The notes: generated by a model from the sequence alone, not told the origin. Shown: positions 5,736 through 61,996, counted from the first letter of the stretch. The stretch: 64,000 nt of DNA from Candidatus Campbellbacteria bacterium (GCA_024653945.1 JANLIT010000001.1:20641-84640), one strand, 5' to 3'. Made by a program: numbers and translations.

Positions 5736-6398
5736 CTAGTTTCCCGACCACGTGAACTTGTGCGTCCAGTTACTTGAGCTGGTGTTGGTGTAGCTGTTGC
5801 AGTTGACGCCCGGTGTACAATAATCACCGCTCGGAAACCGCGACGTGTTTTTGGAACGAGAAGCCGAGCCTGTGGTGGTGTAACCTGCATGCACGTGTGT
5901 TCCATTCCACGCACCACATCCTGTGTCTTGAATCATGCTTCCGAGAGTTCGTGAGTTGAGTTCCCCACTACCAGACGTGGCAATGGAAAAATCTGCAGTT
6001 GAATTCATTGACGCGTGAAGGTATCGCATCGTGCCTCGAATTTGCAGAGCAGCAGTATCCACAATGTATGCTCTCTGCTCTTCGCATCTGTCACCACCGC
6101 CACTAATACGAACGCGTTTTCCTATGAGTCGATTGGTTTCGCGCGGAGAACCGCCTCTCGTAAAAATACCTCGGAAATAAACAGAGGAGGTACTCGTGTT
6201 GTCCCAATCAAGAAAGTCCCCACTTCCAGCTCCACACGAACCACCATGGAAACCGCAGGTGAGAGTTGGTGCTTGTCCGGAAGAACCAGACGCTGGGAGC
6301 ATCTTCACAAGATACGTGACGAGCGGGGCACTCTCGGTGGGCACGGAAAAACCCAACAGCACACCAAGAAAAATCGGGAACATCCATCGGAATCTCAT
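5736..6398 (-). CDS. secreted hypothetical protein (signal peptide; Gly/Ser/Thr/Cys-rich)
   Basis: N-terminal hydrophobic signal MRFRWMFPIFLGVLLGF. I recognise no family. GC about 52%. Confidence 0.45.
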   Translation of the reverse strand: MRFRWMFPIFLGVLLGFSVPTESAPLVTYLVKMLPASGSSGQAPTLTCGFHGGSCGAGSGDFLDWDNTSTSSVYFRGIFTRGGSPRETNRLIGKRVRISGGGDRCEEQRAYIVDTAALQIRGTMRYLHASMNSTADFSIATSGSGELNSRTLGSMIQDTGCGAWNGTHVHAGYTTTGSASRSKNTSRFPSGDYCTPGVNCNSYTNTSSSNWTHKFTWSGN

Positions 6399-6412: not shown

Positions 6413-7114
6413 CTACTGCGTACGCGTTGTTGACGCGACGAGTTCAACAAGTTTCATAAACTCATCACGAGACAGGTTTGCTGTGCCGATAAATGTCTTT
6501 CCGAACGATTCGGAAATCCACGCATTTCCGTTTTCCAAAAAACCTTCTTTGGTCAACGGTTCAATAACAACCACATCTCTTCCTGCAATCTTCATGAGCT
6601 TTGGACGTTCCGAAGAAACACTCACTTCGTCGTATTCAAGAATACTTCGCCCGATGATAATGTTTGCGTTGTCATAGGGCGACTTGAAGGAATACACTCT
6701 GCGAGCTGCGTAGACAATGTCGTTATCCGCACATGCAATAACTCCATTGTTTATGTCGTCTTCCTGCAAAACATAACCCTCAGAAAGATCCAGCGTAAGT
6801 TCAAGTGCTCCTGCACGATCCCAAGAGACGTCCACAGACCCAGAATCGGGTGACCCGCAGACATCTTCATACGAGGTGAACTTCTCTGGTACGGGTGTGC
6901 CTTGTGGTGCAAGAAAGATACCACCGATTTCACCCTCGAAACGTGGTTTAGCGCGCTCCTGCGCTTCCAGAGCACTGTTGTCGGGAATACGCTGAAGACG
7001 AACCTCATCATCAGCAACGAGTGTGGTGCGCAGGTAGAGAGCCCCAACAAAACCAGACACGATGAGAAGTGCGAAAAGAAAAATGGCGCGAAACGACAAC
7101 ATACGAATGTTCAT
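6413..7114 (-). CDS. membrane-anchored hypothetical protein (N-terminal TM helix)
   Basis: The internal ATG at 7114 is preceded by AAGGAG. The N-terminus MNIRMLSFRAIFLFALLIVSGFVGALYL is a TM/signal anchor. Confidence 0.45.
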   Translation of the reverse strand: MNIRMLSFRAIFLFALLIVSGFVGALYLRTTLVADDEVRLQRIPDNSALEAQERAKPRFEGEIGGIFLAPQGTPVPEKFTSYEDVCGSPDSGSVDVSWDRAGALELTLDLSEGYVLQEDDINNGVIACADNDIVYAARRVYSFKSPYDNANIIIGRSILEYDEVSVSSERPKLMKIAGRDVVVIEPLTKEGFLENGNAWISESFGKTFIGTANLSRDEFMKLVELVASTTRTQ

Positions 7115-7360
7115 TGTGTGCTCCTTGTGGTTAGTGATAGTTAATAAACAACTGCCCTTTGCTACACGATAGAAAACTTTTTTCCTCCTTTCTGTTGTCA
7201 AAGATCTGTCTGAGCATGAGTATATGTATGAGAGGTGAAGGAAAAATAAAGTGTTACATACAGTATAAAACACTCTCATGAAGGATAAAAATTAAAATAA
7301 CCAAACGCATAGTAGTGCAAAAAGTGCCTAAAATATGGTATTCTTATCCCCACACAAGAC

Positions 7361-9337: not shown

Positions 9338-9348
9338 AGATATGAGAA

Positions 9349-9380
9349 CGCCCCGCGTATCCGTTTGGATACGCGGGGCG
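9349..9380 (+). terminator. intrinsic terminator after rnr (possibly bidirectional)
   Basis: 12-bp GC-rich stem cgccccgcgtat / atacgcggggcg with an 8-nt loop. A T-rich tract follows on the + strand. Confidence 0.7.
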
Positions 9381-9421
9381 TTTGCTATTTGCTATTAGAT
9401 ATTTGATATTTCCCCCAAGAA

Positions 9422-11257
9422 CTACATCCCCGCCAACTGCTCAAGAAGAATCAAGAGAAGCTGACGCATGAGAGAAACGAGCTCTGTCCGGAGTTCAGCA
9501 ATAAGCTTTGTTTGTTCATCGAAGGTAAGTGGTTGTGGTGTTGGAGAAATAGGTGGTGGTGTCGATGGCGTACTGATGCGTGCTCCTCCTCCACTGCCAC
9601 CTCCAGCACTTGTGGAGTCATCATCGTTGGTGAGCGTACAGGTGTAGGTACCACCTGCAGACATAGTAATGGTACCGTCTGTCGCACAGTCACCTCCCCA
9701 TGTTGAGGTATAGGTGTAACCTGCGGGAGTACTGTGGGTAAGGGTATGTGACGCTGCAACGGTTGTTGTTGCAGTGCCACTCGTGATGGTGAGGCCGTCG
9801 AGATTGAGAGTGAAGTCGCTTATTGTGGCAGTGCCTTGGTCATCATTGGTGACCGTGGTGGTGACGGTGAGAGTGGGTGCGATGTCGTCGTTCGTGATGG
9901 TGCAGGTTGCCGTGTCTCCAAGCGCGAGCGTGATGGTGCCGTCAGCGGCACAATCACCTCCCCAGTCACCTGCAGTGTATGTCGCGTCTTCTGTTTCAGT
10001 GATGGTGTATGTGCCTGCGACAAGGGTTGTAGTTGCCACACCGCTTGTGATGCTCACGCCGTCAACGAACAGTGGAAAATCACCGACCACCGCAGTGCCT
10101 CCGTGGTCGTTCACGACCGTTTTGGTGACGGTGAGCTCTGGAGGAAAAGTTCCGTATGCGAATTTGAGATCGCTGTTGGTAGTGTCAAAATAACTTATAT
10201 ACGCCGAGCCATCTGCATCAAGCACGATTGAGAGGTAAGCCCCAACATCACCAGTAGAATCAATGACGGTAATCGTTTTCGTAGAACATGTTGCATTGGT
10301 ACATTGAGCAAATTTGAGATCGTCGTTGGTGTCGTCATAGTATGCAATGCGTGCAAAACCATCTGTACCAAGGGCTATAGAATTAAAGATCCCTATACCA
10401 GTCTCCGTCGCATCAATGGTTGTATTGGTCTTTGTCGAACATGATGCGTTGGTACATTGAATAAAAAATAAAAGTGTCCCGGCACTCCCGTAGTAACTAA
10501 TCCGTCCAAGATCACCGGCCGTTAAGGCGAGAGAAGATACGACCAGACCAACATCGCCCGTTGGGTCAGGATACGTAATAACGCTTGCCGAACACGCCGC
10601 GTTTGTACACTGTACAAATTTTAAAGCGGCGTTTGAAGCATCATTATAGGTAATACGCGCAAAGCCATCACTACCAAGAACAAGAGATGTGTTTTCTCCA
10701 ACCATATCCGCAGAATCTACAGTAGTGATGACGCTGGTCGAACAAGCAGCATTGGTACATTGAACAAATTTGAGATCTTTATTGGTAGTATCGTAGTATG
10801 AAATTCTCGCAAAACCATCAGAATCAAGAATAGCCAGAGAGGTATACTTTCCAACAATACCCACTGAATCAATCGTTGTGATAACGCTTGTTGAACACGC
10901 GTCATTAGTACATTGAACAAATTTAAGGGCACTGTTAGTAATGTCATAGTATGAAATCCGCGCAAAGCCATCTGAACTAATAGCGATGGAGGTAAATTGT
11001 CCGACGTCACCCGTTGAATCAATAGTCGTAACAACATTTGTCGTACAATCAATGTTCGTACACTGAATAAATTTTAAATTTGCATTTGTAACGTCATAGT
11101 AGGCAACGCGCGCAAAACCATCAAGACCAAGTATTGTGGATGTATATGATCCAACATTTCCTGTTGAATCAATCGCCGTTTTTGTCCATGTTGCCGCAGA
11201 AACAACTGACGGAACGCTGATAATTAAAAACGCAACGATAAATAAAAGTTTTTTCAT
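9422..11257 (-). CDS. secreted surface protein: signal peptide, then 7 tandem ~47-aa beta-propeller-like blades each with a conserved Cys pair, then 2 Ig/prealbumin-like domains and a Gly/Pro linker
   Basis: Signal peptide MKKLLFIVAFLIISVPSVVSA. Seven repeats of the TIDSTGDVG-YTSIA--SDGFARISYYD-TN--LKFVQCTN--CST pattern. Two repeats of the D..GGTA.V.DF.L.VDG..ITSG.ATT.....TYT..E.....YT...WGGDC..DGTIT...G.T.TCT.TNDD pattern. Confidence 0.7.
   Translation of the reverse strand: MKKLLFIVAFLIISVPSVVSAATWTKTAIDSTGNVGSYTSTILGLDGFARVAYYDVTNANLKFIQCTNIDCTTNVVTTIDSTGDVGQFTSIAISSDGFARISYYDITNSALKFVQCTNDACSTSVITTIDSVGIVGKYTSLAILDSDGFARISYYDTTNKDLKFVQCTNAACSTSVITTVDSADMVGENTSLVLGSDGFARITYNDASNAALKFVQCTNAACSASVITYPDPTGDVGLVVSSLALTAGDLGRISYYGSAGTLLFFIQCTNASCSTKTNTTIDATETGIGIFNSIALGTDGFARIAYYDDTNDDLKFAQCTNATCSTKTITVIDSTGDVGAYLSIVLDADGSAYISYFDTTNSDLKFAYGTFPPELTVTKTVVNDHGGTAVVGDFPLFVDGVSITSGVATTTLVAGTYTITETEDATYTAGDWGGDCAADGTITLALGDTATCTITNDDIAPTLTVTTTVTNDDQGTATISDFTLNLDGLTITSGTATTTVAASHTLTHSTPAGYTYTSTWGGDCATDGTITMSAGGTYTCTLTNDDDSTSAGGGSGGGARISTPSTPPPISPTPQPLTFDEQTKLIAELRTELVSLMRQLLLILLEQLAGM
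10205..11190 (-). repeat. 7 degenerate tandem copies of a ~141-bp unit inside the CDS (about 75% DNA identity between copies), encoding the propeller blades
   Basis: Periodicity is visible in the translation. Recurring DNA blocks such as gcattggtacattga(a/g)caaatttgagatc. Confidence 0.6.
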
Positions 11258-11465
11258 CCCGTTAGAAATGCCCGTTGAAGGTAGATACTGTTTCATAAAT
11301 ACTATGTAGCGAGGTGTAACCTCGCTCATGATTAGAGAATATGAGAACAGAATATCATTTTTACCCCCCCCCGCACATTTTTTGTGTATAACTTTTAAAA
11401 CGTAGAGACCGGACCCTTAGGAGGTCCGGTCTCTACAACCTCTTCCGAGGGTTACACCTCCAAAA

Positions 11466-13796
11466 CTATGGGGTCGATTCTGGAGCTGGATTAGGTGTGG
11501 GTTCAACAACTGGTTCGAGTATGGGTTCCGGAGCTTGCCCTTCAATAATTGGTTCACCTGCCTGCGCAGGCAGGTCTATAGCTGGTGGCTCCACAACTGG
11601 AGAAATTTCAGATGTGGAGGTTGGAGCTTCCAACGAAGGTTCAACTTCTGTGGCTGGTGGGGTTTCAACAACCGGTGGAGGCGTTGAAGAAACGTTCACA
11701 CTATCAAGAATCTCTTGAAGTTGTGACTCGTTTACACATGTTGTTCCAACGCACAGTTTATTTGTCGTGAGTTCATCCGTCGTCAACTTTTGGGCAACAA
11801 TATCAAAGAAGTTAGACACACCCGTCGCAGCGTTGGCGAGAGTTAGTTCAACTTTTATCGAGAGATCTTGAACCGTCTTAATCAAAAGTGGAATAATACT
11901 CGTGTAACGAACACTGTTCGGTCGTCCTTGGTCATCATACCCAATAAGACGACTGTCTACTTTTTCCACCTCTTCAGCAATTAATCCGTACCGCAATCCT
12001 GGAATTTGATTGTATTCAAACGACACGGGGCGAAGTGCAGAAAGCACCTGCTGAGATTCTTCCAACGAGAGTTCATTGATGTCGTGTTTGTAACGCAGTG
12101 ATGAGGTGATACATGTTTCGTTGTCGGTGTTGCGTGTCACTTCATTGTTTGCGTCAAGACACAACGATGCTGTGGCCGCACCAGTATTTGTGGTCAACCC
12201 AGCAAATCCAACAGTGCCAGTAACCGAGAGTGTCCGCCATGGAGATGTGGTGCCAACACCAACGTTACCTGCAAAATAGCTCTTTCCACCAGCTGAATAA
12301 ATTGAATAATTATTTGTCGACCCACTCGTTATCGATTCCAGATACAAACCATACGCATCTGTTATTGATCCTCCTAATACTCTTACTTTACCATAGTATC
12401 CATACGCGCTTCCAATCACTCCACTGGCGGCAGTAACCACATCAGAATATGTGCCGAAAGCGGAAGTAATGGATGCCCCCGACCCAACTGACGAAACTTG
12501 ATTGTATGCTCCATACGCCTGAAGTGTCGTACCCGATATCTGTGCAGTTCCCTCAGTTCCTGTTACATTATCTGTTGTTTGACCACTATCTACAATTCCC
12601 GCACCCTGTACACCAAGCACTGCTCCATGAGAAAACGCTCCAGAACTCCTCGTCGCACTACCGCGAATTCCAATCAAACTGTTTTCACTGTTTCCATTAC
12701 CCGCGAGTGAAAAGAAACCGCCGTATATTCCCCCACTTGTCGTATCGAGACCTGTCGCATTTACATACACATATTTTTTACTATCAATTGCAGTCCCTGC
12801 GGCGCTTATTGAACCAGAAACAAGTACACTTCCTCCTACAACGAGTTTTTGAGAAGGACTTGTTGTACTAATGCCAACATTTCCATTTTGCAATACCGTT
12901 AAACCAGATGATCCCGCAACAGAAAGTCCTCCAGAAAAAGTACTTGTCGCCGTTGTAGATGTGGCGTTAATAAAAAGCGTTTGCACATACTTACTTCCAT
13001 CTGGATAAATGTACGTGCCTGTATCAAGCCATTCTGATATTCCACCAATACCGAGTGTTGATGTTGCCACCCAATCCGTACCCGTTTCAGTGGATTGTAG
13101 TACATATCCGCTTGTCCCCACATCACCCGAACTATCAGCAAACGTACCCGCCACAGAAAGAGTATCTGAAAGTGTAAGTGTTGTTCCTGTGAGTCCGCCG
13201 GTGAGAGTGCCTCCAGAGAGCTCGAGAAAATTGTCGGGGAAATTGGTAATAGGCGAACGTGACGCACTCTTAATTTTTGGCAAAAGTTCTGCGCGAAGTG
13301 CGGCAACTGCGTTGGCAACAACATAAAACACTTCAGTTTGTTGTACTTTTTTATCTACAGCGGATGGCGCCTGAATAGTAAAATGAGGAGGAGGTACTTC
13401 TTGGATAACTGCCTCTGAAAGCACTGACCCTTGGGTGGAAATTGGCGTAAAAAAAGATTTTGCAACAGGTACAATCTGCTGTGTAGGTTCATTTTTTTGT
13501 ACAGAAATGACGGGTGGTTTTTCAGAAACACCGGTGGCACCGAACCACGAACGTATTTTTGCCTGTATGCGCTGAAAAAAAGTTGGAGCGGTGGTAAAAG
13601 TTTGAGGTACTTCGGTCGATATGGTTATTTTTTGGGAGATTGAGGTATCAGACGCTATAGCAAATGTTCCGAGGCTGTGGGTATATTTTTGTGCACCAAC
13701 ATTTAAAACAGTGTCATAACTACTATCCCCTGCAAAAACAAAAATGGGTACAACAAGTATGAGGGTAAGAAAAACGTTCTTCATGTAATATTTCAT
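11466..13796 (-). CDS. secreted tail-fibre-like surface protein with a peptidase-S74-like intramolecular chaperone domain and a Pro-rich C-terminus
   Basis: Signal peptide. A long Gly/Ser/Thr-rich beta-helix-like region. Then LRYKHDINELSLEESQQVLSALRPVSFEYNQIPGLRYGLIAEEVEKVDSRLIGYDDQGRPNSVRYTSIIPLLIKTVQDL, which resembles the C-terminal auto-cleaving chaperone domain of endosialidase and phage tail fibres. PPPVVETPPATEVEP... follows. Confidence 0.65.
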   Translation of the reverse strand: MKYYMKNVFLTLILVVPIFVFAGDSSYDTVLNVGAQKYTHSLGTFAIASDTSISQKITISTEVPQTFTTAPTFFQRIQAKIRSWFGATGVSEKPPVISVQKNEPTQQIVPVAKSFFTPISTQGSVLSEAVIQEVPPPHFTIQAPSAVDKKVQQTEVFYVVANAVAALRAELLPKIKSASRSPITNFPDNFLELSGGTLTGGLTGTTLTLSDTLSVAGTFADSSGDVGTSGYVLQSTETGTDWVATSTLGIGGISEWLDTGTYIYPDGSKYVQTLFINATSTTATSTFSGGLSVAGSSGLTVLQNGNVGISTTSPSQKLVVGGSVLVSGSISAAGTAIDSKKYVYVNATGLDTTSGGIYGGFFSLAGNGNSENSLIGIRGSATRSSGAFSHGAVLGVQGAGIVDSGQTTDNVTGTEGTAQISGTTLQAYGAYNQVSSVGSGASITSAFGTYSDVVTAASGVIGSAYGYYGKVRVLGGSITDAYGLYLESITSGSTNNYSIYSAGGKSYFAGNVGVGTTSPWRTLSVTGTVGFAGLTTNTGAATASLCLDANNEVTRNTDNETCITSSLRYKHDINELSLEESQQVLSALRPVSFEYNQIPGLRYGLIAEEVEKVDSRLIGYDDQGRPNSVRYTSIIPLLIKTVQDLSIKVELTLANAATGVSNFFDIVAQKLTTDELTTNKLCVGTTCVNESQLQEILDSVNVSSTPPPVVETPPATEVEPSLEAPTSTSEISPVVEPPAIDLPAQAGEPIIEGQAPEPILEPVVEPTPNPAPESTP

Positions 13797-29351: not shown

Positions 29352-30249
29352 AATTAGGGAATATAAAACGTAAAATATGGAAAATAATAATATGGAATAG
29401 AGAAAAGGCCCGAGCGCAAGCGTCGGACCTCTTCAGTAACTACCGGCGACCGGCAATGATACTGGAAAAAAGAACGGAATCTACGTCGACCTCTGGAGCG
29501 AACTCCTGAGGATAGATTAAGACGTTGGGAACAGAGCGGCCTATCGCTCTTGGATGATTTTGCGTGTCGCGACCGAAGTCGAGAGCACGTGTCCTGGGTT
29601 GGACATCATCCGTTCCCACGAGCCCTGTGTTTCACTGATGTGTCACACAGAACCATTACCGAGTTATTGCAGAAAGGGTGAGCTCCCTGCGATTTCTCGT
29701 TTGCCTCTGAGGCGATCGTGACCAATTCCTTTTAAGGGCGCTGGTCTCGTTCGTTGTGATGATGTCTGAAGGGTTTTGAGTCCTCCGAACACCCCACTGT
29801 AGAAGTTGTCGATTCTGCCGCAAGCGACAGAGTGCTAGGTCCGACATCTCCTCCTGGTGCAATGGAAACCGAGTTGCTCGCAAGATTGCTCCCGCGTGCT
29901 TCTCTCCCATAGTTTCCCTCGGCTCATTCCACGTTGTCTCACATCGACATTCCCTTTGAGGAGAAGCAAACCGAAGTTCGCAGTCATCCCAACTGGACTA
30001 TCGCGTCTGATGCTAGGCACCGGACTGAAGTGGTTTCAGAGAGAACATTGCACTGTTCTCCTTACCGTGTAACCAATCACTCTCGGTTTGTTGTGGTCCT
30101 CTTGCGAGAGCCGTAACGTACCGCATGCTTGGTATGTGAGAAGTATACGGATAGTGAAGTTGTTGTCAATCACATATCTCGTTTCTCAATAAAAAATACC
30201 TTTCGTCAAATTTTTTGTTTAAATGCATCCCTGTACCGAAAACAGCACG

Positions 30250-30278
30250 TTGACATACAGGAGATACCTGTATACTAT
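30250..30278 (+). promoter_or_regulatory. sigma70-type promoter TTGACA-N17-TACTAT whose spacer is a perfect palindrome (tacagg agat acctgta), a candidate operator
   Basis: -35 at 30250-30255, -10 at 30273-30278, exact 17-bp spacer. The inverted repeat spans 30256-30272. Confidence 0.6.
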
Positions 30279-30558
30279 CCATTTTGGTTCAGGCAAACAC
30301 TCGGTGGCTTGCTGGTCTTTCTGGGGGCGGGGATGAGCCCAAACCTAGAGAGTTTAAAGGGCGATGAGCCCGAACAGCCAATAGTAGACAGGAAACTGCT
30401 ACTGTTTCGAGGGTTCAATTCCCTTGGGGTGGCGGAGAGATGATCTTGAGTAGCGTAGACTAGGCGGGAGACGGAGAAGCTTTGGCTCTGGCCAAGGTGG
30501 AGTCGCCACTGAAAAACCGCCCTCTCAGGAAATATGCTCGAAGTCGCTTGAACCACAG

Positions 30559-30592
30559 TGTCACTCTTTCGGGGGTGACATTTTATTTTTTT
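30559..30592 (+). terminator. intrinsic terminator on the + strand (tgtcac...gtgaca followed by ttttattttttt)
   Basis: Hairpin followed by a 12-nt T-rich run. It closes a ~300-nt transcription unit that starts at the 30250 promoter. Confidence 0.5.
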
Positions 30593-30595
30593 ACA

Positions 30596-31162
30596 TTACT
30601 TTTCTCGCCGAAAACAATCAACGGAGTGGTCATTCACCATTCCCGTTGCCTGCATGTGTGCATACACCGTTGTTGAGCCAAGAAACTTAAATCCACGTTT
30701 TTTTAAGTCCAATGCAAGCGCATCCGATTCTTTTATTGTTGGTTTGTAGTCCTTGAGTGTTTTTATTTTGTGTTGGATTGGTTTTCCGCCAACAAAACTC
30801 CATATATATTTTGAAAACGTGCCAAATTCTTTCTGTACTTCAAGAAAACGCCGTGCATTGTTAATTGCCGCTTCAATTTTTGCACGGTTGCGAATGATGC
30901 CCTCATTTGTAAGAAGCTGACGTACTTCCCTTTTTCCAAAAAGTGCTACTCTCGAGGGATTAAACTGCGAAAATGCTTTTCTATAGTTTTCTCTTTTGCG
31001 CAACACCGTGAGCCACGAAAGACCGGCTTGTGCACTTTCAAGCACGAGAAATTCAAAAATCTTTTTGTCGTCATATACAGGAACACCCCACTCTTCGTCG
31101 TGGTACTTCTCATAGAGTTCGTCACCAATTTTGATCCACGGACAACGTTTTTTCATACACAC
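30596..31162 (-). CDS. tag: DNA-3-methyladenine glycosylase I
   Basis: YHDEEWGVPVYDDKKIFEFLVLESAQAGLSWLTVLRKRENYRKAF...IIRNRAKIEAAINNA matches the Tag family. Confidence 0.85.
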   Translation of the reverse strand: MCMKKRCPWIKIGDELYEKYHDEEWGVPVYDDKKIFEFLVLESAQAGLSWLTVLRKRENYRKAFSQFNPSRVALFGKREVRQLLTNEGIIRNRAKIEAAINNARRFLEVQKEFGTFSKYIWSFVGGKPIQHKIKTLKDYKPTIKESDALALDLKKRGFKFLGSTTVYAHMQATGMVNDHSVDCFRREK

Positions 31163-31308
31163 ATTCTACCACTGTAAAAAGAGCCCTAATATAATATAAA
31201 AAAGAAAAGATGCCCGACACCATTTTTCATTTTTACTGGCGTTTTAATATATTAGATTGACTCTTCTCGTGCCTCGATAATTTATCTTAATTAATTTTAG
31301 AGTTGTAA

Positions 31309-32535
31309 TTATTTAATATTTTTAATTATAGATTTGAATTCAGGCTTATTCTTATAAAAAGTGAAAATTTCCCATTCGTCTATTTCTTTTTTTCCTACGG
31401 TTTTTGCCTTGATTAATTTACTTAAATATTTATAAAAATCTTTGTGTTTTTCCAATAAAGCAAATTTACACATCTCAAAATCATCTCTAGTTAAGCTCCA
31501 ATCTTCTAACAGTAAAACTTTTTCTATATCTTCCAATTTTTTCCCTTGTTTTTTTAATCCAATACAGTAGTTAATAGCTATGTATTTTTTCTCAGAAGCA
31601 TCTATTTTGAGATTTGAAATAAAATTATATATGGATTTTGTATAATTATATTGTTCATGTTTGACTAAATAATGTAATGGATTGGTTAATAAAAAATTTT
31701 TATTTTTTATTTCTTCAGAAAAGTTAAGTTGAGCTTCTTGAATGATATAAGTTCCTATAAAATACAATAAGTAAAGTGAATCGGTAAGATATTTGTCTGT
31801 TATAGTTATAGTTTTGTTTGAATTATTTTTTTCGTCTCCATATCTTTTAATATACTCTCGATCCTTTTTTCCTTCATTGTGAACAATAAGATTTCTTATT
31901 TTAATTAATTTTTTTAAATCTTCCAAATTTTTACTAATTGGATCTAAATTAAGAGCCATGTCCTTTTTTAAAACTTTTAGTTTTCGATCTAATCCTTTTT
32001 CAATCAAAAGAGCTTCAATTTCTCTGTCAATTAGAAATTTTTGGGCCTCTGCTATGTTTTCTATATTTTCTAGCTCTTTATAGTTGATTGACTGATTTTC
32101 TAATGATAATTTCTTGTAATTCTTTTTATAATAAAAACTAAATAATTTCGAAAGTAAAATATCTAAAGTTGAAACCATAGACACTATAGTATTTTGTGCA
32201 AATAAATGTCCTTGTAATGGTTGTGTCTTTAAAACATCAACAAGTATCTCAGAAACATTACTTAATTCTTTTTTTGAAAATTTAAGTTTTAACTTACCTT
32301 TGGCATGATTTTTATTTTCCTTGGCTTTTTTCTTTAATACTTCCAAAAAGGGTTTAAGCTTTTTATTGTCATATTCTTGCGCATGTTTCCCAATTTCTCT
32401 AATTGATATTTCTTGAAGAAAAATATTGTTTTCAAAAACATTCTGCATATGTCTAAAAGAATCAATGTTCGTATTTGCCTCCCCTTTGATTAACTTTGTT
32501 TGTTGTTTTATTTTTGGTATCTTTTTAGTCTTCAT
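31309..32535 (-). CDS. Lys-rich hypothetical protein with a HEPN-like Rx4H motif (putative abortive-infection/defence RNase); extremely AT-rich (~27% GC)
   Basis: The motif KIRNLIVHNEG (R-x4-H) sits mid-protein in a 408-aa protein. Composition is roughly 15-30 points below its neighbours. It is a single gene with no operon partners. Confidence 0.5.
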   Translation of the reverse strand: MKTKKIPKIKQQTKLIKGEANTNIDSFRHMQNVFENNIFLQEISIREIGKHAQEYDNKKLKPFLEVLKKKAKENKNHAKGKLKLKFSKKELSNVSEILVDVLKTQPLQGHLFAQNTIVSMVSTLDILLSKLFSFYYKKNYKKLSLENQSINYKELENIENIAEAQKFLIDREIEALLIEKGLDRKLKVLKKDMALNLDPISKNLEDLKKLIKIRNLIVHNEGKKDREYIKRYGDEKNNSNKTITITDKYLTDSLYLLYFIGTYIIQEAQLNFSEEIKNKNFLLTNPLHYLVKHEQYNYTKSIYNFISNLKIDASEKKYIAINYCIGLKKQGKKLEDIEKVLLLEDWSLTRDDFEMCKFALLEKHKDFYKYLSKLIKAKTVGKKEIDEWEIFTFYKNKPEFKSIIKNIK

Positions 32536-32737
32536 ATTTATATGATATATCTTAAGAAATAGGGTCAGGCACCTTTTAATATCCCCACCATACACCCGAA
32601 AAACGAAAAGACAATGTGCACGAACAGTGGCAAGATTAAACCTCGCTCACGTAAAACCAAAAAGCCAAGTAAAAGAAAAGCCGCGTCCCGGGAGTTGTAT
32701 CCGGAAACGCGGTCTCAAAAAAGTGGTCAAACAGAGT

Positions 32738-60790: not shown

Positions 60791-61996
60791 ATGAAAAAAA
60801 TCCACTCTCTTTCTTGGTTGGTGGTTCTGTTCTGTCTTCTATTGATTAGTATGACTGTGGCTCCCTCTTCCGTCCACGCAAACACTGATTTAAAAATATC
60901 AGGATGGATTCCCTACTGGGCAGTATCCAGTGGCACAAAAGATGCACGAAAAAATATTGATGCATTCTCGGCTATTTTTCCTTTTAACTATTCCGTAAAA
61001 AGTGACGGTTCCCTGCTTGATTTAGGAAAAATCAAACAAAGTGCATGGAAGAAGTTGTTCACTGTAGCAAAAAAGAAAGATGTGCTTGTCATTCCAACAG
61101 TTATGTGGAGCAACACGGGTGCCATATACACAGTATTGAACAACCCAAACCTTAGAGCAAAACATATTGGAGAGATTGTAACGATGGTGAAAAAGCAAAA
61201 GTTTGATGGTGTGGACATTGATTATGAAGGAAAGAGTGCCGAAACATATACTTCTTTTGCACTTTTTCTCAAAGAGCTCAAAAAGAAACTTGGAAAAAGA
61301 AAAGTTCTCTCGTGCACCATTGAAGCACGAACTCCACCAGATTCTCTCTACAAAACAATTCCCACCGACTTGCGCTATGCGAATGATTACAATGCAATTG
61401 CAAAATACTGTGATCGTGTGAACATCATGACCTATGACCAGCAACGCGCAGATCTCAAACTCAACGACGCACACGTTGGGGAAGCATATATCCCCATGTC
61501 AGACCCCGCGTGGGTCCGCAAGGTCATTGAGTTGACACTACAGACCATTCCTAAAGAAAAAATCTCACTTGGCGTTCCCACATATGGACATGAGTATGAG
61601 GTTATCGTACGCTCTGGAGCATATCAGGAGTATGGGAAGACTGGTGCGTTCAATCCTTCGTATGGAATCAAGACCGCGAAACAATACGGTATCACACCCG
61701 AGCGTAGTGACGCTGGCGAGTTGAGTTTTACGTTCTCTCTCCTCCCAACGGCGCCACAATTCCTATATAACGCACCCATCCCAACAAACACATCCAGCGC
61801 AAATCGAGTTGCAGCACAATCATTTGCATACACAAAGGCGACCGGGCTCGCGTCAGTGTTCTATTATGCAACGTGGAGTGATGCGGAAGCTATCAGACAA
61901 AAGATTGAGCTTGCGCGGGAATATGGACTTGCGGGTATTGCACTTTTTAAAATTGACGGTAACGAAGATTCCGCCATGTGGAAACTCTTTGATTAA
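60791..61996 (+). CDS. secreted glycoside hydrolase family 18 (chitinase-like)
   Basis: Signal peptide. GH18 catalytic motif FDGVDIDYEG. Confidence 0.8.
   Translation: MKKIHSLSWLVVLFCLLLISMTVAPSSVHANTDLKISGWIPYWAVSSGTKDARKNIDAFSAIFPFNYSVKSDGSLLDLGKIKQSAWKKLFTVAKKKDVLVIPTVMWSNTGAIYTVLNNPNLRAKHIGEIVTMVKKQKFDGVDIDYEGKSAETYTSFALFLKELKKKLGKRKVLSCTIEARTPPDSLYKTIPTDLRYANDYNAIAKYCDRVNIMTYDQQRADLKLNDAHVGEAYIPMSDPAWVRKVIELTLQTIPKEKISLGVPTYGHEYEVIVRSGAYQEYGKTGAFNPSYGIKTAKQYGITPERSDAGELSFTFSLLPTAPQFLYNAPIPTNTSSANRVAAQSFAYTKATGLASVFYYATWSDAEAIRQKIELAREYGLAGIALFKIDGNEDSAMWKLFD

What the first reader, a model, noticed from the sequence alone, without database searches (positions are those of the whole stretch)
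9422..13796. Tandem pair of giant secreted surface proteins: a Cys-containing 7-blade propeller adhesin-like protein and a tail-fibre-like protein with a peptidase-S74 chaperone domain
Gene 1 (9422-11257) has a signal peptide and seven ~47-aa blades, each with a QCTNxxCS Cys pair. Two Ig-like DUF11-type domains follow, then a GGGSGGG/Pro linker and a C-terminal amphipathic helix. Gene 2 (11466-13796) has a Gly/Ser/Thr-rich beta-helix-like shaft followed by a domain matching the auto-cleaving intramolecular chaperone of phage tail spikes (LRYKHDINELS...GLIAEEVEKV...). In phage tail spikes the chaperone is cleaved off after folding; here a Pro-rich tail of about 70 aa follows it. In reduced-genome bacteria such architectures are candidates for host or cell-cell attachment organelles, and the pairing is unusual.
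Basis: partly seen in the sequence, partly recalled or inferred. Interest (0 to 1): 0.6.

Follow-up and report, generated by a model that had tools for sequence, protein, structure and literature searches.

The report
Phage-like fibre and propeller adhesin genes
Two neighbouring but apparently independent genes of a tiny-genome Campbellbacteria (CPR) bacterium encode secreted surface proteins, one a phage-tail-fibre-like fibre with a self-cleaving folding domain and one a seven-bladed lectin-like propeller on a stalk; both are plausible host-attachment proteins and both belong to protein kinds already known.

Summary
The sequence features are real, with corrections. Both genes lie on the minus strand, and the fibre gene (g2, 13796->11466, 776 aa) is upstream of the propeller gene (g1, 11257->9422, 611 aa). 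Neither protein is giant.

g1 has a Sec signal peptide and a seven-bladed propeller with a 50-51 aa period (AlphaFold pLDDT 95-99). Six of the seven blades carry a CX4C pair. Two SpaA_2 prealbumin-like domains follow (not DUF11), then a Gly/Pro linker and a C-terminal helix. The best solved structural matches are the Photorhabdus PLL/PHL lectins.

g2 has a signal peptide, an orphan N-terminal region, and a Gly/Thr/Ser-rich shaft whose profile matches the Bdellovibrio MAT fibre shafts. Its Peptidase_S74 chaperone keeps the Ser565/Lys570 dyad. A Cys hairpin and a 76-aa Pro/Glu-rich tail follow.

The pairing looks incidental. A strong hairpin separates the genes, no g1 relative lies near 66 loci that carry g2 relatives, and the flanks are housekeeping genes.

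A paralogue on the same contig (NUW02_00010) reuses g1's stalk and tail under a PD40 propeller, which suggests modular head swapping. The window comes from a Candidatus Campbellbacteria MAG. NCBI already names g2 "tail fiber domain-containing protein".

Verdict: new members of known kinds, of moderate-to-low interest.

The parts
11466..13796 (-). g2 CDS, 776 aa (NCBI: 772 aa from Met5, 'tail fiber domain-containing protein', MCR4274446.1)
13731..13796 (-). g2 signal peptide, aa 1-22 (MKYYMKNVFLTLILVVPIFVFA|GD). No lipobox Cys.
   Evidence: Read from the sequence. It is the only strongly hydrophobic segment of the protein. 22 of 38 homologues also start with a hydrophobic leader.
13197..13730 (-). 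g2 N-terminal region, aa 23-200. Orphan sequence; inferred to be the cell-proximal attachment end.
   Evidence: No homologue was found. No BLAST alignment to any of the 49 relatives starts before aa 118. AlphaFold pLDDT is about 30-50.
12105..13196 (-). g2 fibre shaft, aa 201-564. It contains a GGTLTG motif and two GNVG(I/V)(S/G)TTSP...L capping-loop motifs (aa 307 and 512). A conserved Cys546/Cys562 loop sits just before the cleavage site.
   Evidence: The A2 profile matches Bdellovibrio MAT fibres (8ond at 5.4e-14; also 8ol4, 8ojn, 8oml, 8on4). Motifs. Cys conservation is 24/30 and 21/30.
11781..12104 (-). g2 Peptidase_S74 intramolecular chaperone, aa 565-672. The putative cleavage Ser565 and Lys570 form the motif S-S-L-R-Y-K. 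A long helix spans aa 631-672.
   Evidence: Pfam 31.7 bits against cut-off 22. Ser is conserved in 27/30 and Lys in 28/30 homologues. pLDDT is 88-96. Foldseek matches the MyRF ICA domain 7dc3 at 1.5e-5, with 4uw8 and 3gw6 below. The profile matches 8jov, 6f45 and 7dc3.
11697..11780 (-). g2 post-chaperone Cys hairpin plus helix, aa 673-700 (KLCVGTTCVNESQLQEIL; C682/C687)
   Evidence: AlphaFold models strands 680-683 and 686-689 and a helix 690-700. The motif recurs in about 10 homologues.
11469..11696 (-). g2 Pro/Glu-rich low-complexity tail, aa 701-776, with no terminal anchor motif
   Evidence: no LPXTG
11402..11436 (-). Terminator-like hairpin after g2: a 14-bp perfect stem followed by GUUUU
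   Evidence: Folding of the 86-nt stretch 11380-11465 that contains this hairpin gives -40.7 kcal/mol, z = -6.5, and 0 of 200 shuffles fold as well. The consensus scan did not list it because the tail has only 4 U.
11364..11372 (-). G9 homopolymer upstream of g1, the only G/C run of 7 or more in the window. Candidate phase-variation tract.
9422..11257 (-). g1 CDS, 611 aa from the ATG at 11257. Alternative starts are at 11296 (NCBI, 624 aa, MCR4274445.1, 'hypothetical protein') and 11329.
11195..11257 (-). g1 signal peptide, aa 1-21 (MKKLLFIVAFLIISVPSVVSA|AT)
   Evidence: Read from the sequence; hydropathy.
10142..11194 (-). g1 seven-bladed beta-propeller, aa 22-372. Six CX4C pairs lie in the blade-to-blade connections: 66/71, 116/121, 167/172, 217/222, 268/273 and 319/324.
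9614..10141 (-). g1 two SpaA_2 (PF19403) prealbumin-like stalk domains, aa 373-460 and 461-548, each with a Cys pair (436/452 and 524/540)
9527..9613 (-). g1 Gly-rich then Pro-rich linker, aa 549-577
9425..9526 (-). g1 C-terminal helix, aa 578-611 (...LMRQLLLILLEQLAGM). It is specific to this lineage and shared only with the paralogue NUW02_00010.
   Evidence: AlphaFold models a helix at 579-610 with pLDDT about 80-92. An exhaustive search of 1.84 billion representatives found only g1 itself and P0170. Hydrophobic moment is 0.3-0.5.
9346..9383 (.). 17-bp GC-rich hairpin between the convergent genes g1 and RNase R; likely a bidirectional terminator

Best explanation
These are two independently transcribed genes for Sec-exported surface proteins of a Candidatus Campbellbacteria (Patescibacteria/CPR) cell. 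Each is built from shuffled modules, and each most likely serves attachment to a partner cell or to surface glycans.

g2 is a cellular, phage-derived fibre of the S74-terminated kind. After export, the C-terminal intramolecular chaperone domain brings three chains together and nucleates folding of the Gly/Thr/Ser-rich beta-helical shaft. The Ser565/Lys570 dyad then cuts the chain in front of Ser565. This removes a 212-aa fragment made of the chaperone, the Cys hairpin and the Pro/Glu tail. The cut exposes a distal tip that ends in a disulfide-closed loop (Cys546-Cys562). The orphan N-terminal region (aa 23-200) holds the fibre on the cell.

g1 is a head-on-stalk protein. A seven-bladed, internally very regular, lectin-like propeller forms the head, stapled by six CX4C disulfides. 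It sits on two SpaA_2 Ig-like domains and a Gly/Pro linker. A lineage-specific C-terminal amphipathic or weakly hydrophobic helix tethers or oligomerises the protein. A paralogue on the same contig carries the same stalk and tail under a PD40 propeller, so the stalk is a reusable display cassette with exchangeable heads.

Shown here: the ORFs, leaders, domain identities, catalytic-residue conservation, propeller fold, head swap, hairpin between the genes, and lack of conserved pairing.
Inferred: trimerisation, autocleavage, disulfides, surface location, the mode of anchoring, and the ligand or partner bound.
For: - Domain matches: S74 at 31.7 bits against cut-off 22, and SpaA_2 at 57.7 bits.
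- In 30 homologues S565 is kept in 27, K570 in 28, C546 in 24 and C562 in 21.
- The motif corresponds to the SDxxxK catalytic motif. The self-cleavage shown for Bdellovibrio Bd3182 is blocked by S782A (PMC10769870).
- A profile of g2 and its relatives matches phage tail-fibre chaperones (8jov at 4e-14, 6f45 at 8e-10) and the MyRF ICA domain (7dc3). Its shaft positions match Bdellovibrio MAT fibre structures (8ond at 5e-14; also 8ol4, 8ojn, 8oml, 8on4).
- The confident part of the g2 model (pLDDT 88-96) matches MyRF ICA, the T5 tail fibre and the endoNF chaperone.
- The g1 propeller has pLDDT 95-99 and 28 strands. Its best solved structural matches are the seven-bladed Photorhabdus lectins (E 4e-14, TM 0.73-0.81). 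PHL has up to seven fucose sites per monomer (PMC6797808).
- g1 relatives carry other carbohydrate- or wall-binding partner domains, including CBM96, CBM35, LysM and choline-binding repeats.
- The paralogue P0170 (NUW02_00010) is 74% identical over the stalk and tail but has PD40 repeats as its head.
- The flanks are housekeeping genes: rpoB, trmD, RNase R, SMC. PBPs and a Mur ligase further along show the cell makes a wall.
- The hairpin between the genes.
- Cultivated Patescibacteria are epibionts that need several adhesins (PMC10633639).
Against: - There is no experimental or proteomic evidence for either protein.
- AlphaFold could not model the g2 shaft as a monomer (mean pLDDT 47), so the trimeric beta-helix is inferred from homology only.
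- Position +1 of the catalytic motif is Ser rather than the usual Asp. This is the commonest residue among the relatives, 14 of 30.
- Neither protein has a recognised anchoring signal: no LPXTG, no lipobox, no clear TM helix. Retention on the cell is therefore assumed.
- The propeller resembles lectins only in fold (11-16% identity). Glycosidase and sialidase propellers also appear lower in the hit list.
- Campbellbacteria have not been shown to be epibionts.
Confidence: 0.6

Rival explanations
1. The two genes form one functional device. The surface-anchored g1 propeller would be the dock that holds the orphan N-terminal domain of the g2 fibre, or the two would be co-regulated parts of a single attachment organelle.
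For: - The genes are adjacent, on the same strand, and both encode exported proteins.
- The g2 N-terminal region has no known partner or homologue.
- For the Bdellovibrio MAT fibres the surface element that binds the N-terminal domain is also unknown (PMC10769870).
- The closest genome relatives of g2's C-terminal module are fused to a different propeller (LVIVD) in one chain.
Against: - A very stable terminator-like hairpin lies between the genes, and g1 has its own upstream region.
- tblastn of g1 found nothing in 66 loci holding g2 relatives.
- The neighbourhoods of two g1 relatives have no S74 gene.
- The g1 paralogue lies about 21 genes away, not next to a fibre gene.
Confidence: 0.1
2. 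g2 is a remnant of a prophage, tailocin or other mobile element (a true tail fibre), not a cellular surface protein.
For: - The S74 domain and shaft motifs are typical of phage tail fibres.
- One relative (P0127) lies between an integrase, a relaxase and a DUF87 ATPase.
Against: - g2 has an N-terminal signal peptide, as do 22 of 38 relatives.
- The flanking genes are rpoB, trmD, RNase R, bPH and SMC, with no phage genes.
- GC content is unremarkable across the locus.
- Only three weak, S74-only matches were found in 50,697 phage records.
Confidence: 0.05
3. g1 is not an adhesin. It would be an extracellular enzyme (a glycosidase, sialidase or lyase-like propeller) or a structural wall or S-layer component.
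For: - Lower-ranked fold matches include GH145 hydrolases, sialidases and polysaccharide lyases.
- Some relatives weakly match BNR_4.
Against: - The top 16 solved matches are lectins.
- The seven blades are near-identical repeats with the same conserved residues in each. This fits multivalent binding better than a single asymmetric active site.
- The paralogue swaps the whole head while keeping the stalk.
Confidence: 0.15
4. After autocleavage the g2 fibre is released from the cell as a soluble trimer and is not displayed. The C-terminal fragment would be the part that stays wall- or membrane-associated.
For: - Four relatives end in a TM helix plus basic residues after the chaperone and also have N-terminal leaders. 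This gives a MyRF-like topology in which cleavage frees the N-terminal trimer.
- g2 itself has a Pro/Glu-rich extended tail after the chaperone.
- Mature g2 has no recognisable anchor.
Against: - The g2 tail has no TM helix or anchor motif.
- In the characterised Bdellovibrio S74 fibres the N-terminal domain is thought to sit on the producing cell (PMC10769870).
Confidence: 0.1

Closest known systems
Bdellovibrio bacteriovorus MAT (mosaic adhesive trimer) fibres, S74 subfamily, e.g. Bd3182 (PMC10769870)
   Same: - Chromosomal, signal-peptide-bearing, phage-tail-fibre-like proteins.
- Beta-helical shafts with GNVGIGT..P...L capping loops.
- A C-terminal S74 chaperone/protease with a Ser-x4-Lys motif.
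- The shaft profile matches the solved MAT structures.
- The producing organism depends on contact with other cells.
   Different: - The g2 N-terminal region is an orphan, not detectably the conserved ~130-aa MAT N-terminal domain.
- The motif reads SSxxxK rather than SDxxxK.
- A conserved disulfide loop precedes the cleavage site.
- A Cys hairpin and a Pro/Glu tail follow the chaperone.
- g2 is shorter (776 aa against about 1,000 aa).
- The host cell is inferred to be a wall-bearing monoderm CPR cell; only the wall genes were seen here (PBPs and a Mur ligase).
Phage C-terminal intramolecular chaperone domains: K1F endosialidase (3GW6), T5 L-shaped tail fibre pb1 (4UW8), and the 8jov and 6f45 tail fibres
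   Same: Pfam Peptidase_S74 membership, the Ser/Lys dyad, the fold, and the position directly after a trimeric beta-helical stalk.
   Different: - g2 has a signal peptide and a housekeeping genomic context.
- The chaperone is not the end of the protein; about 105 further residues follow its long helix.
- Only three weak matches were found in the phage collection.
Myelin regulatory factor (MyRF) ICA domain, 7DC3
   Same: - It is the best fold match to the confident part of the g2 model (E 1.5e-5).
- The S74-type domain is followed by further sequence rather than the C-terminus.
- Four g2 relatives even carry a TM helix after it, as MyRF does.
   Different: MyRF is a eukaryotic transcription factor with an unrelated N-terminal cargo. 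g2 itself has no TM helix after the domain.
Photorhabdus seven-bladed propeller lectins, the PLL/PHL 'bangle lectin' family
   Same: A seven-bladed propeller of about 340-350 aa built from highly regular repeats of about 50 aa. TM-score is 0.73-0.81.
   Different: - Identity is only 11-16%, and the PDB sequence search gave no match.
- PLL/PHL are stand-alone soluble lectins without a stalk.
- The CX4C staple per blade is a feature of the g1 family.
- Sugar binding by g1 has not been tested.
Uncharacterised CX4C propeller family (more than 1,900 relatives in CPR, Nitrospiria, Altiarchaeota and others; mostly no Pfam domain)
   Same: The same repeat consensus, D-x-x-G-x-V-G-x-Y-T-S-I-A-x-G-x-D-G-x-P-x-I-S-Y-Y-D-x-x-N-x-D-L-K-x-A-x-C-x-N-x-x-C-S, with 7 or about 14 blades.
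   Different: - g1 combines the propeller with two SpaA_2 domains and a tail specific to this lineage.
- Many CPR relatives are about 965 aa and start with a pilin-like N-terminus instead.
SpaA-type prealbumin-like stalk domains (Pfam SpaA_2, PF19403), the domain kind named after Gram-positive pilins and adhesins (own knowledge)
   Same: Two tandem SpaA_2 domains placed between the functional head and the cell-proximal end, each with a Cys pair.
   Different: There is no sortase signal. Anchoring would be through a C-terminal helix instead.

Membership tests
Peptidase_S74 / C-terminal intramolecular chaperone domain | Match to the Pfam PF13884 model above its gathering score | tested here: met
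   31.7 bits against a cut-off of 22, at aa 565-614 and profile positions 1-53 of 58
Peptidase_S74 / C-terminal intramolecular chaperone domain | Catalytic Ser-x4-Lys dyad (SDxxxK) at the start of the domain | tested here: met
   S565-S-L-R-Y-K570. Ser is kept in 27/30 relatives and Lys in 28/30. Position +1 is Ser in 14/30 and Asp in 6/30. The motif definition comes from PMC10769870.
Peptidase_S74 / C-terminal intramolecular chaperone domain | Fold of solved chaperone domains | tested here: met
   The model has pLDDT 88-96 over aa ~565-650. Foldseek gives 7dc3 at E 1.5e-5, with 4uw8 and 3gw6 next but weak.
Peptidase_S74 / C-terminal intramolecular chaperone domain | Autoproteolytic release after trimer folding | not testable with these tools
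   Needs expression of wild type against S565A and K570A mutants.
Bdellovibrio MAT fibre superfamily | Beta-helical trimeric shaft with capping-loop motifs, homologous to solved MAT shafts | tested here: met
   The A2 profile matches 8ond (Bd2133) at 5.4e-14, 8ol4 at 4e-8, 8ojn at 2e-7 and 8oml at 1e-4. The motifs lie at aa 307 and 512. The trimeric state itself was not modelled.
Bdellovibrio MAT fibre superfamily | Conserved beta-rich N-terminal domain of about 130 aa directly after the signal peptide | tested here: inconclusive
   g2 aa 1-205 found no homologue, and no relative aligns before aa 118. No full-length Bdellovibrio MAT N-terminus was at hand for a direct comparison; the L056 ORF is truncated at its 5' end.
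Phage or prophage tail fibre | Location among phage structural genes, and no secretion signal | tested here: not met
   The flanks are housekeeping genes. A signal peptide is present.
PLL/PHL seven-bladed propeller lectins | Seven-bladed propeller fold | tested here: met
PLL/PHL seven-bladed propeller lectins | Detectable sequence homology or conserved sugar-binding residues | tested here: not met
   Identity is 11-16% in the structural alignments. phmmer against PDB sequences found no lectin. Binding-site residues were not compared.
SpaA_2 prealbumin-like domain (PF19403) | Pfam match above the gathering score | tested here: met
   57.7 bits for the whole protein and 68.4 bits for aa 373-611, two stretches, against a cut-off of 25
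   DUF11 is not listed even at E<=1.
Ogr/Delta zinc finger (a database match to be explained) | A complete four-Cys zinc ribbon with an individually significant domain match | tested here: not met
   The 32.9 bits are summed over repeats, and no stretch is significant on its own. The NCBIfam equivalog scores 40.8 bits against a cut-off of 116. The match comes from the QCxNxxCS knuckle-like motif repeated six times in a secreted protein.

The most novel reading that the evidence does not exclude
The locus could be a two-part host-recognition device specific to CPR bacteria.
- g1 would be a wall-anchored propeller dock, possibly phase-variable through the G9 tract in its upstream region. It would hold the orphan N-terminal domain of the g2 fibre.
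- g2 would mature through a MyRF-like switch. The chaperone fragment would stay tethered in the wall by its Pro/Glu tail (by a TM helix in some relatives) until autocleavage frees and activates the fibre tip.

This would give ultra-small episymbionts a phage-derived targeting system with exchangeable heads.
Probability: 0.08. Interest if true: 0.65.

Novelty: new member of a known kind. Interest (0 to 1): 0.33.

Why it matters
How CPR/Patescibacteria cells find and hold their partner cells is largely unknown beyond type IV pili and a few adhesins in cultivated Saccharibacteria (PMC10633639, PMC11623550).

This locus shows that a Campbellbacteria genome carries two modular surface-protein designs:
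- a phage-derived S74 fibre whose shaft resembles the prey-recognition fibres of the predator Bdellovibrio;
- a stalk-and-tail cassette that displays interchangeable propeller heads.

Both are concrete, clonable candidates for host-range determinants. The S74 cleavage and the propeller's glycan binding can be tested in E. coli without culturing the organism.

The finding does not reveal a new kind of system, and the gene pairing that made it look unusual is not supported.

Tried and rejected
- **Locus search with alignments failed.** The search for related loci with the full homologue alignment (A2) and with a trimmed S74 alignment (A3) failed because no stretch was conserved enough. I used the single g2 C-terminal fragment instead. 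The source genome itself was not in that collection.
- **Exact look-ups failed.** The look-up of encoding contigs had no record for P0121, P0126 or P0170. The position of the paralogue was inferred from its locus tag and contig length instead.
- **The g2 structure prediction was weak.** The monomer model is poor outside the S74 domain (mean pLDDT 47), so the trimeric beta-helix could not be checked. The SpaA_2 region of the g1 model was also low-confidence because the alignment was thin there.
- **The zinc-finger matches are rejected.** The Ogr/Delta, PRK09678 and PyrI_C matches are artefacts of the repeated CX4C motif.
- **Prophage origin is rejected**.
- **Sortase anchoring is rejected**, because neither protein has an LPXTG motif.
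- **The g1 C-terminal helix is not a clear TM helix.** It does not rank among the hydrophobic peaks of the protein. My hand calculation gives a mean Kyte-Doolittle value of about 1.5 over the last 19 residues, so a weak tail anchor is not excluded.
- **Literature.** Searches found no paper linking Patescibacteria with S74 or tail-fibre proteins.

Full report
**Source and layout.** The window is part of an 88-kb contig of a Candidatus Campbellbacteria (Patescibacteria, Parcubacteria group) metagenome-assembled genome. Both ORFs of the finding exist, but on the minus strand. The fibre-like gene g2 (13796->11466, 776 aa) therefore lies upstream of the propeller gene g1 (11257->9422, 611 aa; longer alternative starts at 11296 and 11329). 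NCBI already lists g2 as 'tail fiber domain-containing protein' (772 aa) and g1 as 'hypothetical protein' (624 aa). The flanks are housekeeping genes: rpoB, trmD, RNase R (convergent with g1), a small membrane protein, a bPH-domain protein and SMC. Further along are DNA polymerase III, aminoacyl-tRNA synthetases, two PBPs and a Mur ligase. GC content is even across the locus. This is core chromosome of a wall-bearing cell, not a prophage.

**g1: checking the observation.** The leader MKKLLFIVAFLIISVPSVVSA|A is a textbook Sec signal and the only strongly hydrophobic segment of the protein. Seven tandem repeats follow, with a period of 50-51 aa rather than about 47, and they are 37-72% identical to each other. 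Six repeats end in Q-C-T-N-x-x-C-(S/T). The seventh has no cysteine. AlphaFold2 with a 30-sequence alignment models aa 22-372 as 7 x 4 strands with pLDDT 95-99. The Cys pairs sit in the connection from the outer strand of one blade to the inner strand of the next. Because the protein is exported, each pair stands alone, and some relatives have no Cys at all (P0046, P0059), I read them as stabilising CX4C disulfides. That is an inference.

**g1: database artefacts and the rest of the protein.** The Pfam Ogr_Delta and NCBIfam PRK09678 matches are summed artefacts of this knuckle-like motif. After the propeller come two SpaA_2 (PF19403) prealbumin-like domains, not DUF11. Each has a Cys pair. Then come GGGSGGG, a Pro-rich stretch, and a C-terminal helix (aa 579-610, pLDDT about 80-92).

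**g1: what it resembles.** Foldseek against the PDB puts the Photorhabdus seven-bladed lectins PLL, PLL2-5 and PHL in the first 16 places (E down to 4e-14, TM 0.73-0.81, identity 11-16%). GH145 hydrolases, sialidases and lyases come below. PHL binds fucose at up to seven sites per monomer (PMC6797808). Sequence searches found more than 1,900 relatives of the propeller in CPR phyla, Nitrospiria, Altiarchaeota and others, with 7 or about 14 CX4C blades. Most have no Pfam domain. A few match DUF1936 or BNR_4. Partner domains include CBM96, CBM35, LysM, choline-binding repeats and a pilin N-methylation motif. So g1 belongs to a large, uncharacterised, extracellular propeller family, and it resembles lectins in fold only.

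**g1: a reusable stalk.** An exhaustive HMMER search of 1.84 billion representative proteins with the last 52 residues of g1 returned only g1 and P0170. P0170 is NUW02_00010, on the same contig about 21 genes away and outside the window. It is 74% identical to g1 over the two SpaA_2 domains, the linker and the helix, and the last 16 residues are identical. Its head, however, is made of PD40 (TolB-type) propeller repeats. The stalk plus tail is therefore a display cassette carrying exchangeable propeller heads. That is what one expects of surface recognition proteins. The tail is not a clear transmembrane segment: the hydrophobic moment is 0.3-0.5, and my hand calculation gives a mean Kyte-Doolittle value of about 1.5 over the last 19 residues. 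Its role as an in-plane membrane anchor, a weak tail anchor or an oligomerisation helix is open.

**g2: checking the observation.** The leader MKYYMKNVFLTLILVVPIFVFA|GD is signal-peptide-like, and 22 of 38 relatives also begin with a hydrophobic leader. Residues 23-200 have no detectable relative. Residues 200-564 are 17% Gly, 15% Thr and 14% Ser. They contain the GGTLTG motif and two GNVG(I/V)xTTSP...L motifs. Peptidase_S74 is matched above threshold at aa 565-614.

**g2: profile and fold evidence.** A profile of g2 and 29 relatives hits the chaperone domains of phage tail fibres (8jov at 4e-14, 6f45 at 8e-10) and of MyRF (7dc3). With its shaft positions it hits the solved Bdellovibrio 'mosaic adhesive trimer' fibres Bd2133 (8ond, 5e-14), 8ol4, 8ojn, 8oml and 8on4. 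The AlphaFold monomer model is poor overall (mean pLDDT 47), as expected for an obligate trimer with a thin alignment. It is confident (88-96) over the S74 domain, which Foldseek matches to the MyRF ICA domain, with weaker matches to the T5 tail fibre and the endoNF chaperone.

**g2: the cleavage site.** The Pfam match starts at S565, and the motif is S565-S-L-R-Y-K570. Ser is kept in 27/30 relatives and Lys in 28/30. The +1 residue is Ser in 14 and Asp in 6. This corresponds to the SDxxxK motif, whose Ser is the self-cleavage site in Bdellovibrio Bd3182, where S782A blocks processing (PMC10769870). Just upstream, Cys546 and Cys562 are conserved (24/30 and 21/30). The processed fibre would therefore end in a probably disulfide-closed loop (...C-x15-C-I-T).

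**g2: after the chaperone.** The long chaperone helix (aa 631-672) is followed by a C682/C687 hairpin, a short helix (KLCVGTTCVNESQLQEIL) and a 76-aa Pro/Glu-rich tail with no anchor motif. This is not peculiar to g2. About ten of the homologues examined have the same LCxGxxCxTExQ module followed by an acidic or Pro/Ser/Thr-rich tail. Five have a longer Cys hairpin variant, and four end in a short coiled coil. Four end in a transmembrane helix plus basic residues, a MyRF-like topology.

**Is the pair a unit?** The 208-nt spacer contains a perfect 14-bp hairpin followed by GUUUU. Folding the 86-nt stretch that contains it gives -40.7 kcal/mol, z = -6.5. g1 has its own terminator hairpin, shared with the convergent RNase R gene. 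A scan of one genome per species found 66 loci with relatives of g2's C-terminal module, about a dozen of them from Patescibacteria. tblastn with g1 found nothing in any of these loci, nor in one further contig (L001) fetched earlier for a g2 homologue. Two g1 relatives examined in their contigs have no S74 neighbour. I conclude that the adjacency is incidental or specific to this lineage. One caveat remains. The two closest genome relatives of g2's module (L002, 1,595 aa; L003, 1,112 aa) carry LVIVD propeller repeats in the same polypeptide. Propeller-plus-S74 combinations therefore do recur in CPR, though with a different propeller family and by fusion rather than as neighbours.

**Mechanism (inferred).** g2 is exported and trimerises from its C-terminal chaperone. 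It folds into a beta-helical fibre and cuts itself before Ser565. This sheds a 212-aa fragment and exposes the distal tip. The orphan N-terminal region holds the fibre on the cell. g1 displays a multivalent lectin-like head on an Ig-like stalk. Cultivated Patescibacteria are epibionts that need several adhesins (PMC10633639), and Bdellovibrio uses homologous fibres on prey (PMC10769870). The best reading is therefore partner-cell or glycan attachment. Domain identities are near certain. Function is about even odds.

**Rivals.**
- A two-part dock-and-fibre device: about 0.1.
- A prophage remnant: about 0.05.
- An enzymatic or purely structural role for g1: about 0.15.
- A released rather than displayed fibre: about 0.1.

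**Novelty.** S74-terminated cellular fibres and propeller-headed stalk adhesins are known kinds, and g2 is already named as such by NCBI. Three features are worth recording as variants: the SSxxxK motif with a conserved pre-cleavage disulfide loop, the post-chaperone Cys hairpin plus low-complexity tail (or TM helix), and the head-swapped paralogue pair. I found no paper linking Patescibacteria with S74 fibres. Interest is moderate to low.

Noticed in passing
window 11364-11372 (minus strand): A G9 run lies in the g2-g1 spacer and is the only G/C homopolymer of 7 or more in the 64-kb window. It sits just downstream of the g2 terminator hairpin, 35 nt upstream of the longest-ORF ATG of g1, and is directly followed by TAAAAAT. 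It is a candidate slipped-strand phase-variation tract for a surface protein.
   Followed up: no
outside the window, same contig: NUW02_00010 (P0170, MCR4274424.1): This 673-aa paralogue has the same two SpaA_2 domains, linker and C-terminal helix as g1 (74% identity). Its head is a PD40 propeller instead of the CX4C propeller.
   Followed up: yes
L002 4089-8876 and L003 5745-9083: The closest genome relatives of g2's C-terminal module are 1,595-aa and 1,112-aa proteins. LVIVD beta-propeller repeats are fused upstream of the S74 domain in the same polypeptide.
   Followed up: partly
homologues P0132, P0140, P0149, P0158: These S74 proteins have an N-terminal leader and, after the chaperone helix, a C-terminal transmembrane helix ending in basic residues. 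In this MyRF-like topology autocleavage would detach the fibre from the membrane.
   Followed up: partly
homologues P0005, P0008, P0009, P0012, P0016 and others (about 965 aa): Many CPR relatives of the g1 propeller begin with a pilin-like hydrophobic N-terminus (for example ERGFATIVGVIAVLSL) and end in a conserved ...SSGPxGGWxIxxWKE motif. One member of the alignment matches the N_methyl pilin motif. These may be propeller-bearing minor pilins.
   Followed up: no
L001 (contig of P0127): One g2 relative lies between a phage-type integrase, a DUF87 ATPase, a Replic_Relax relaxase and a second integrase. It is therefore on an integrative mobile element, unlike g2.
   Followed up: no
window 30001-32000: GC content drops to 0.358 against 0.41-0.50 elsewhere. 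The 428-aa ORF at 31309-32595 (minus strand) has no Pfam match.
   Followed up: no
window 60791-61996 (+): A glycoside hydrolase family 18 (chitinase-like) protein is encoded in this reduced genome.
   Followed up: no
window 6413-7279 (-) and 5736-6398 (-): Two ORFs next to RNase R have no Pfam match. The first has an internal hydrophobic segment (MLSFRAIFLFALLIVSGFVGALYL) that suggests a membrane or secreted protein.
   Followed up: no
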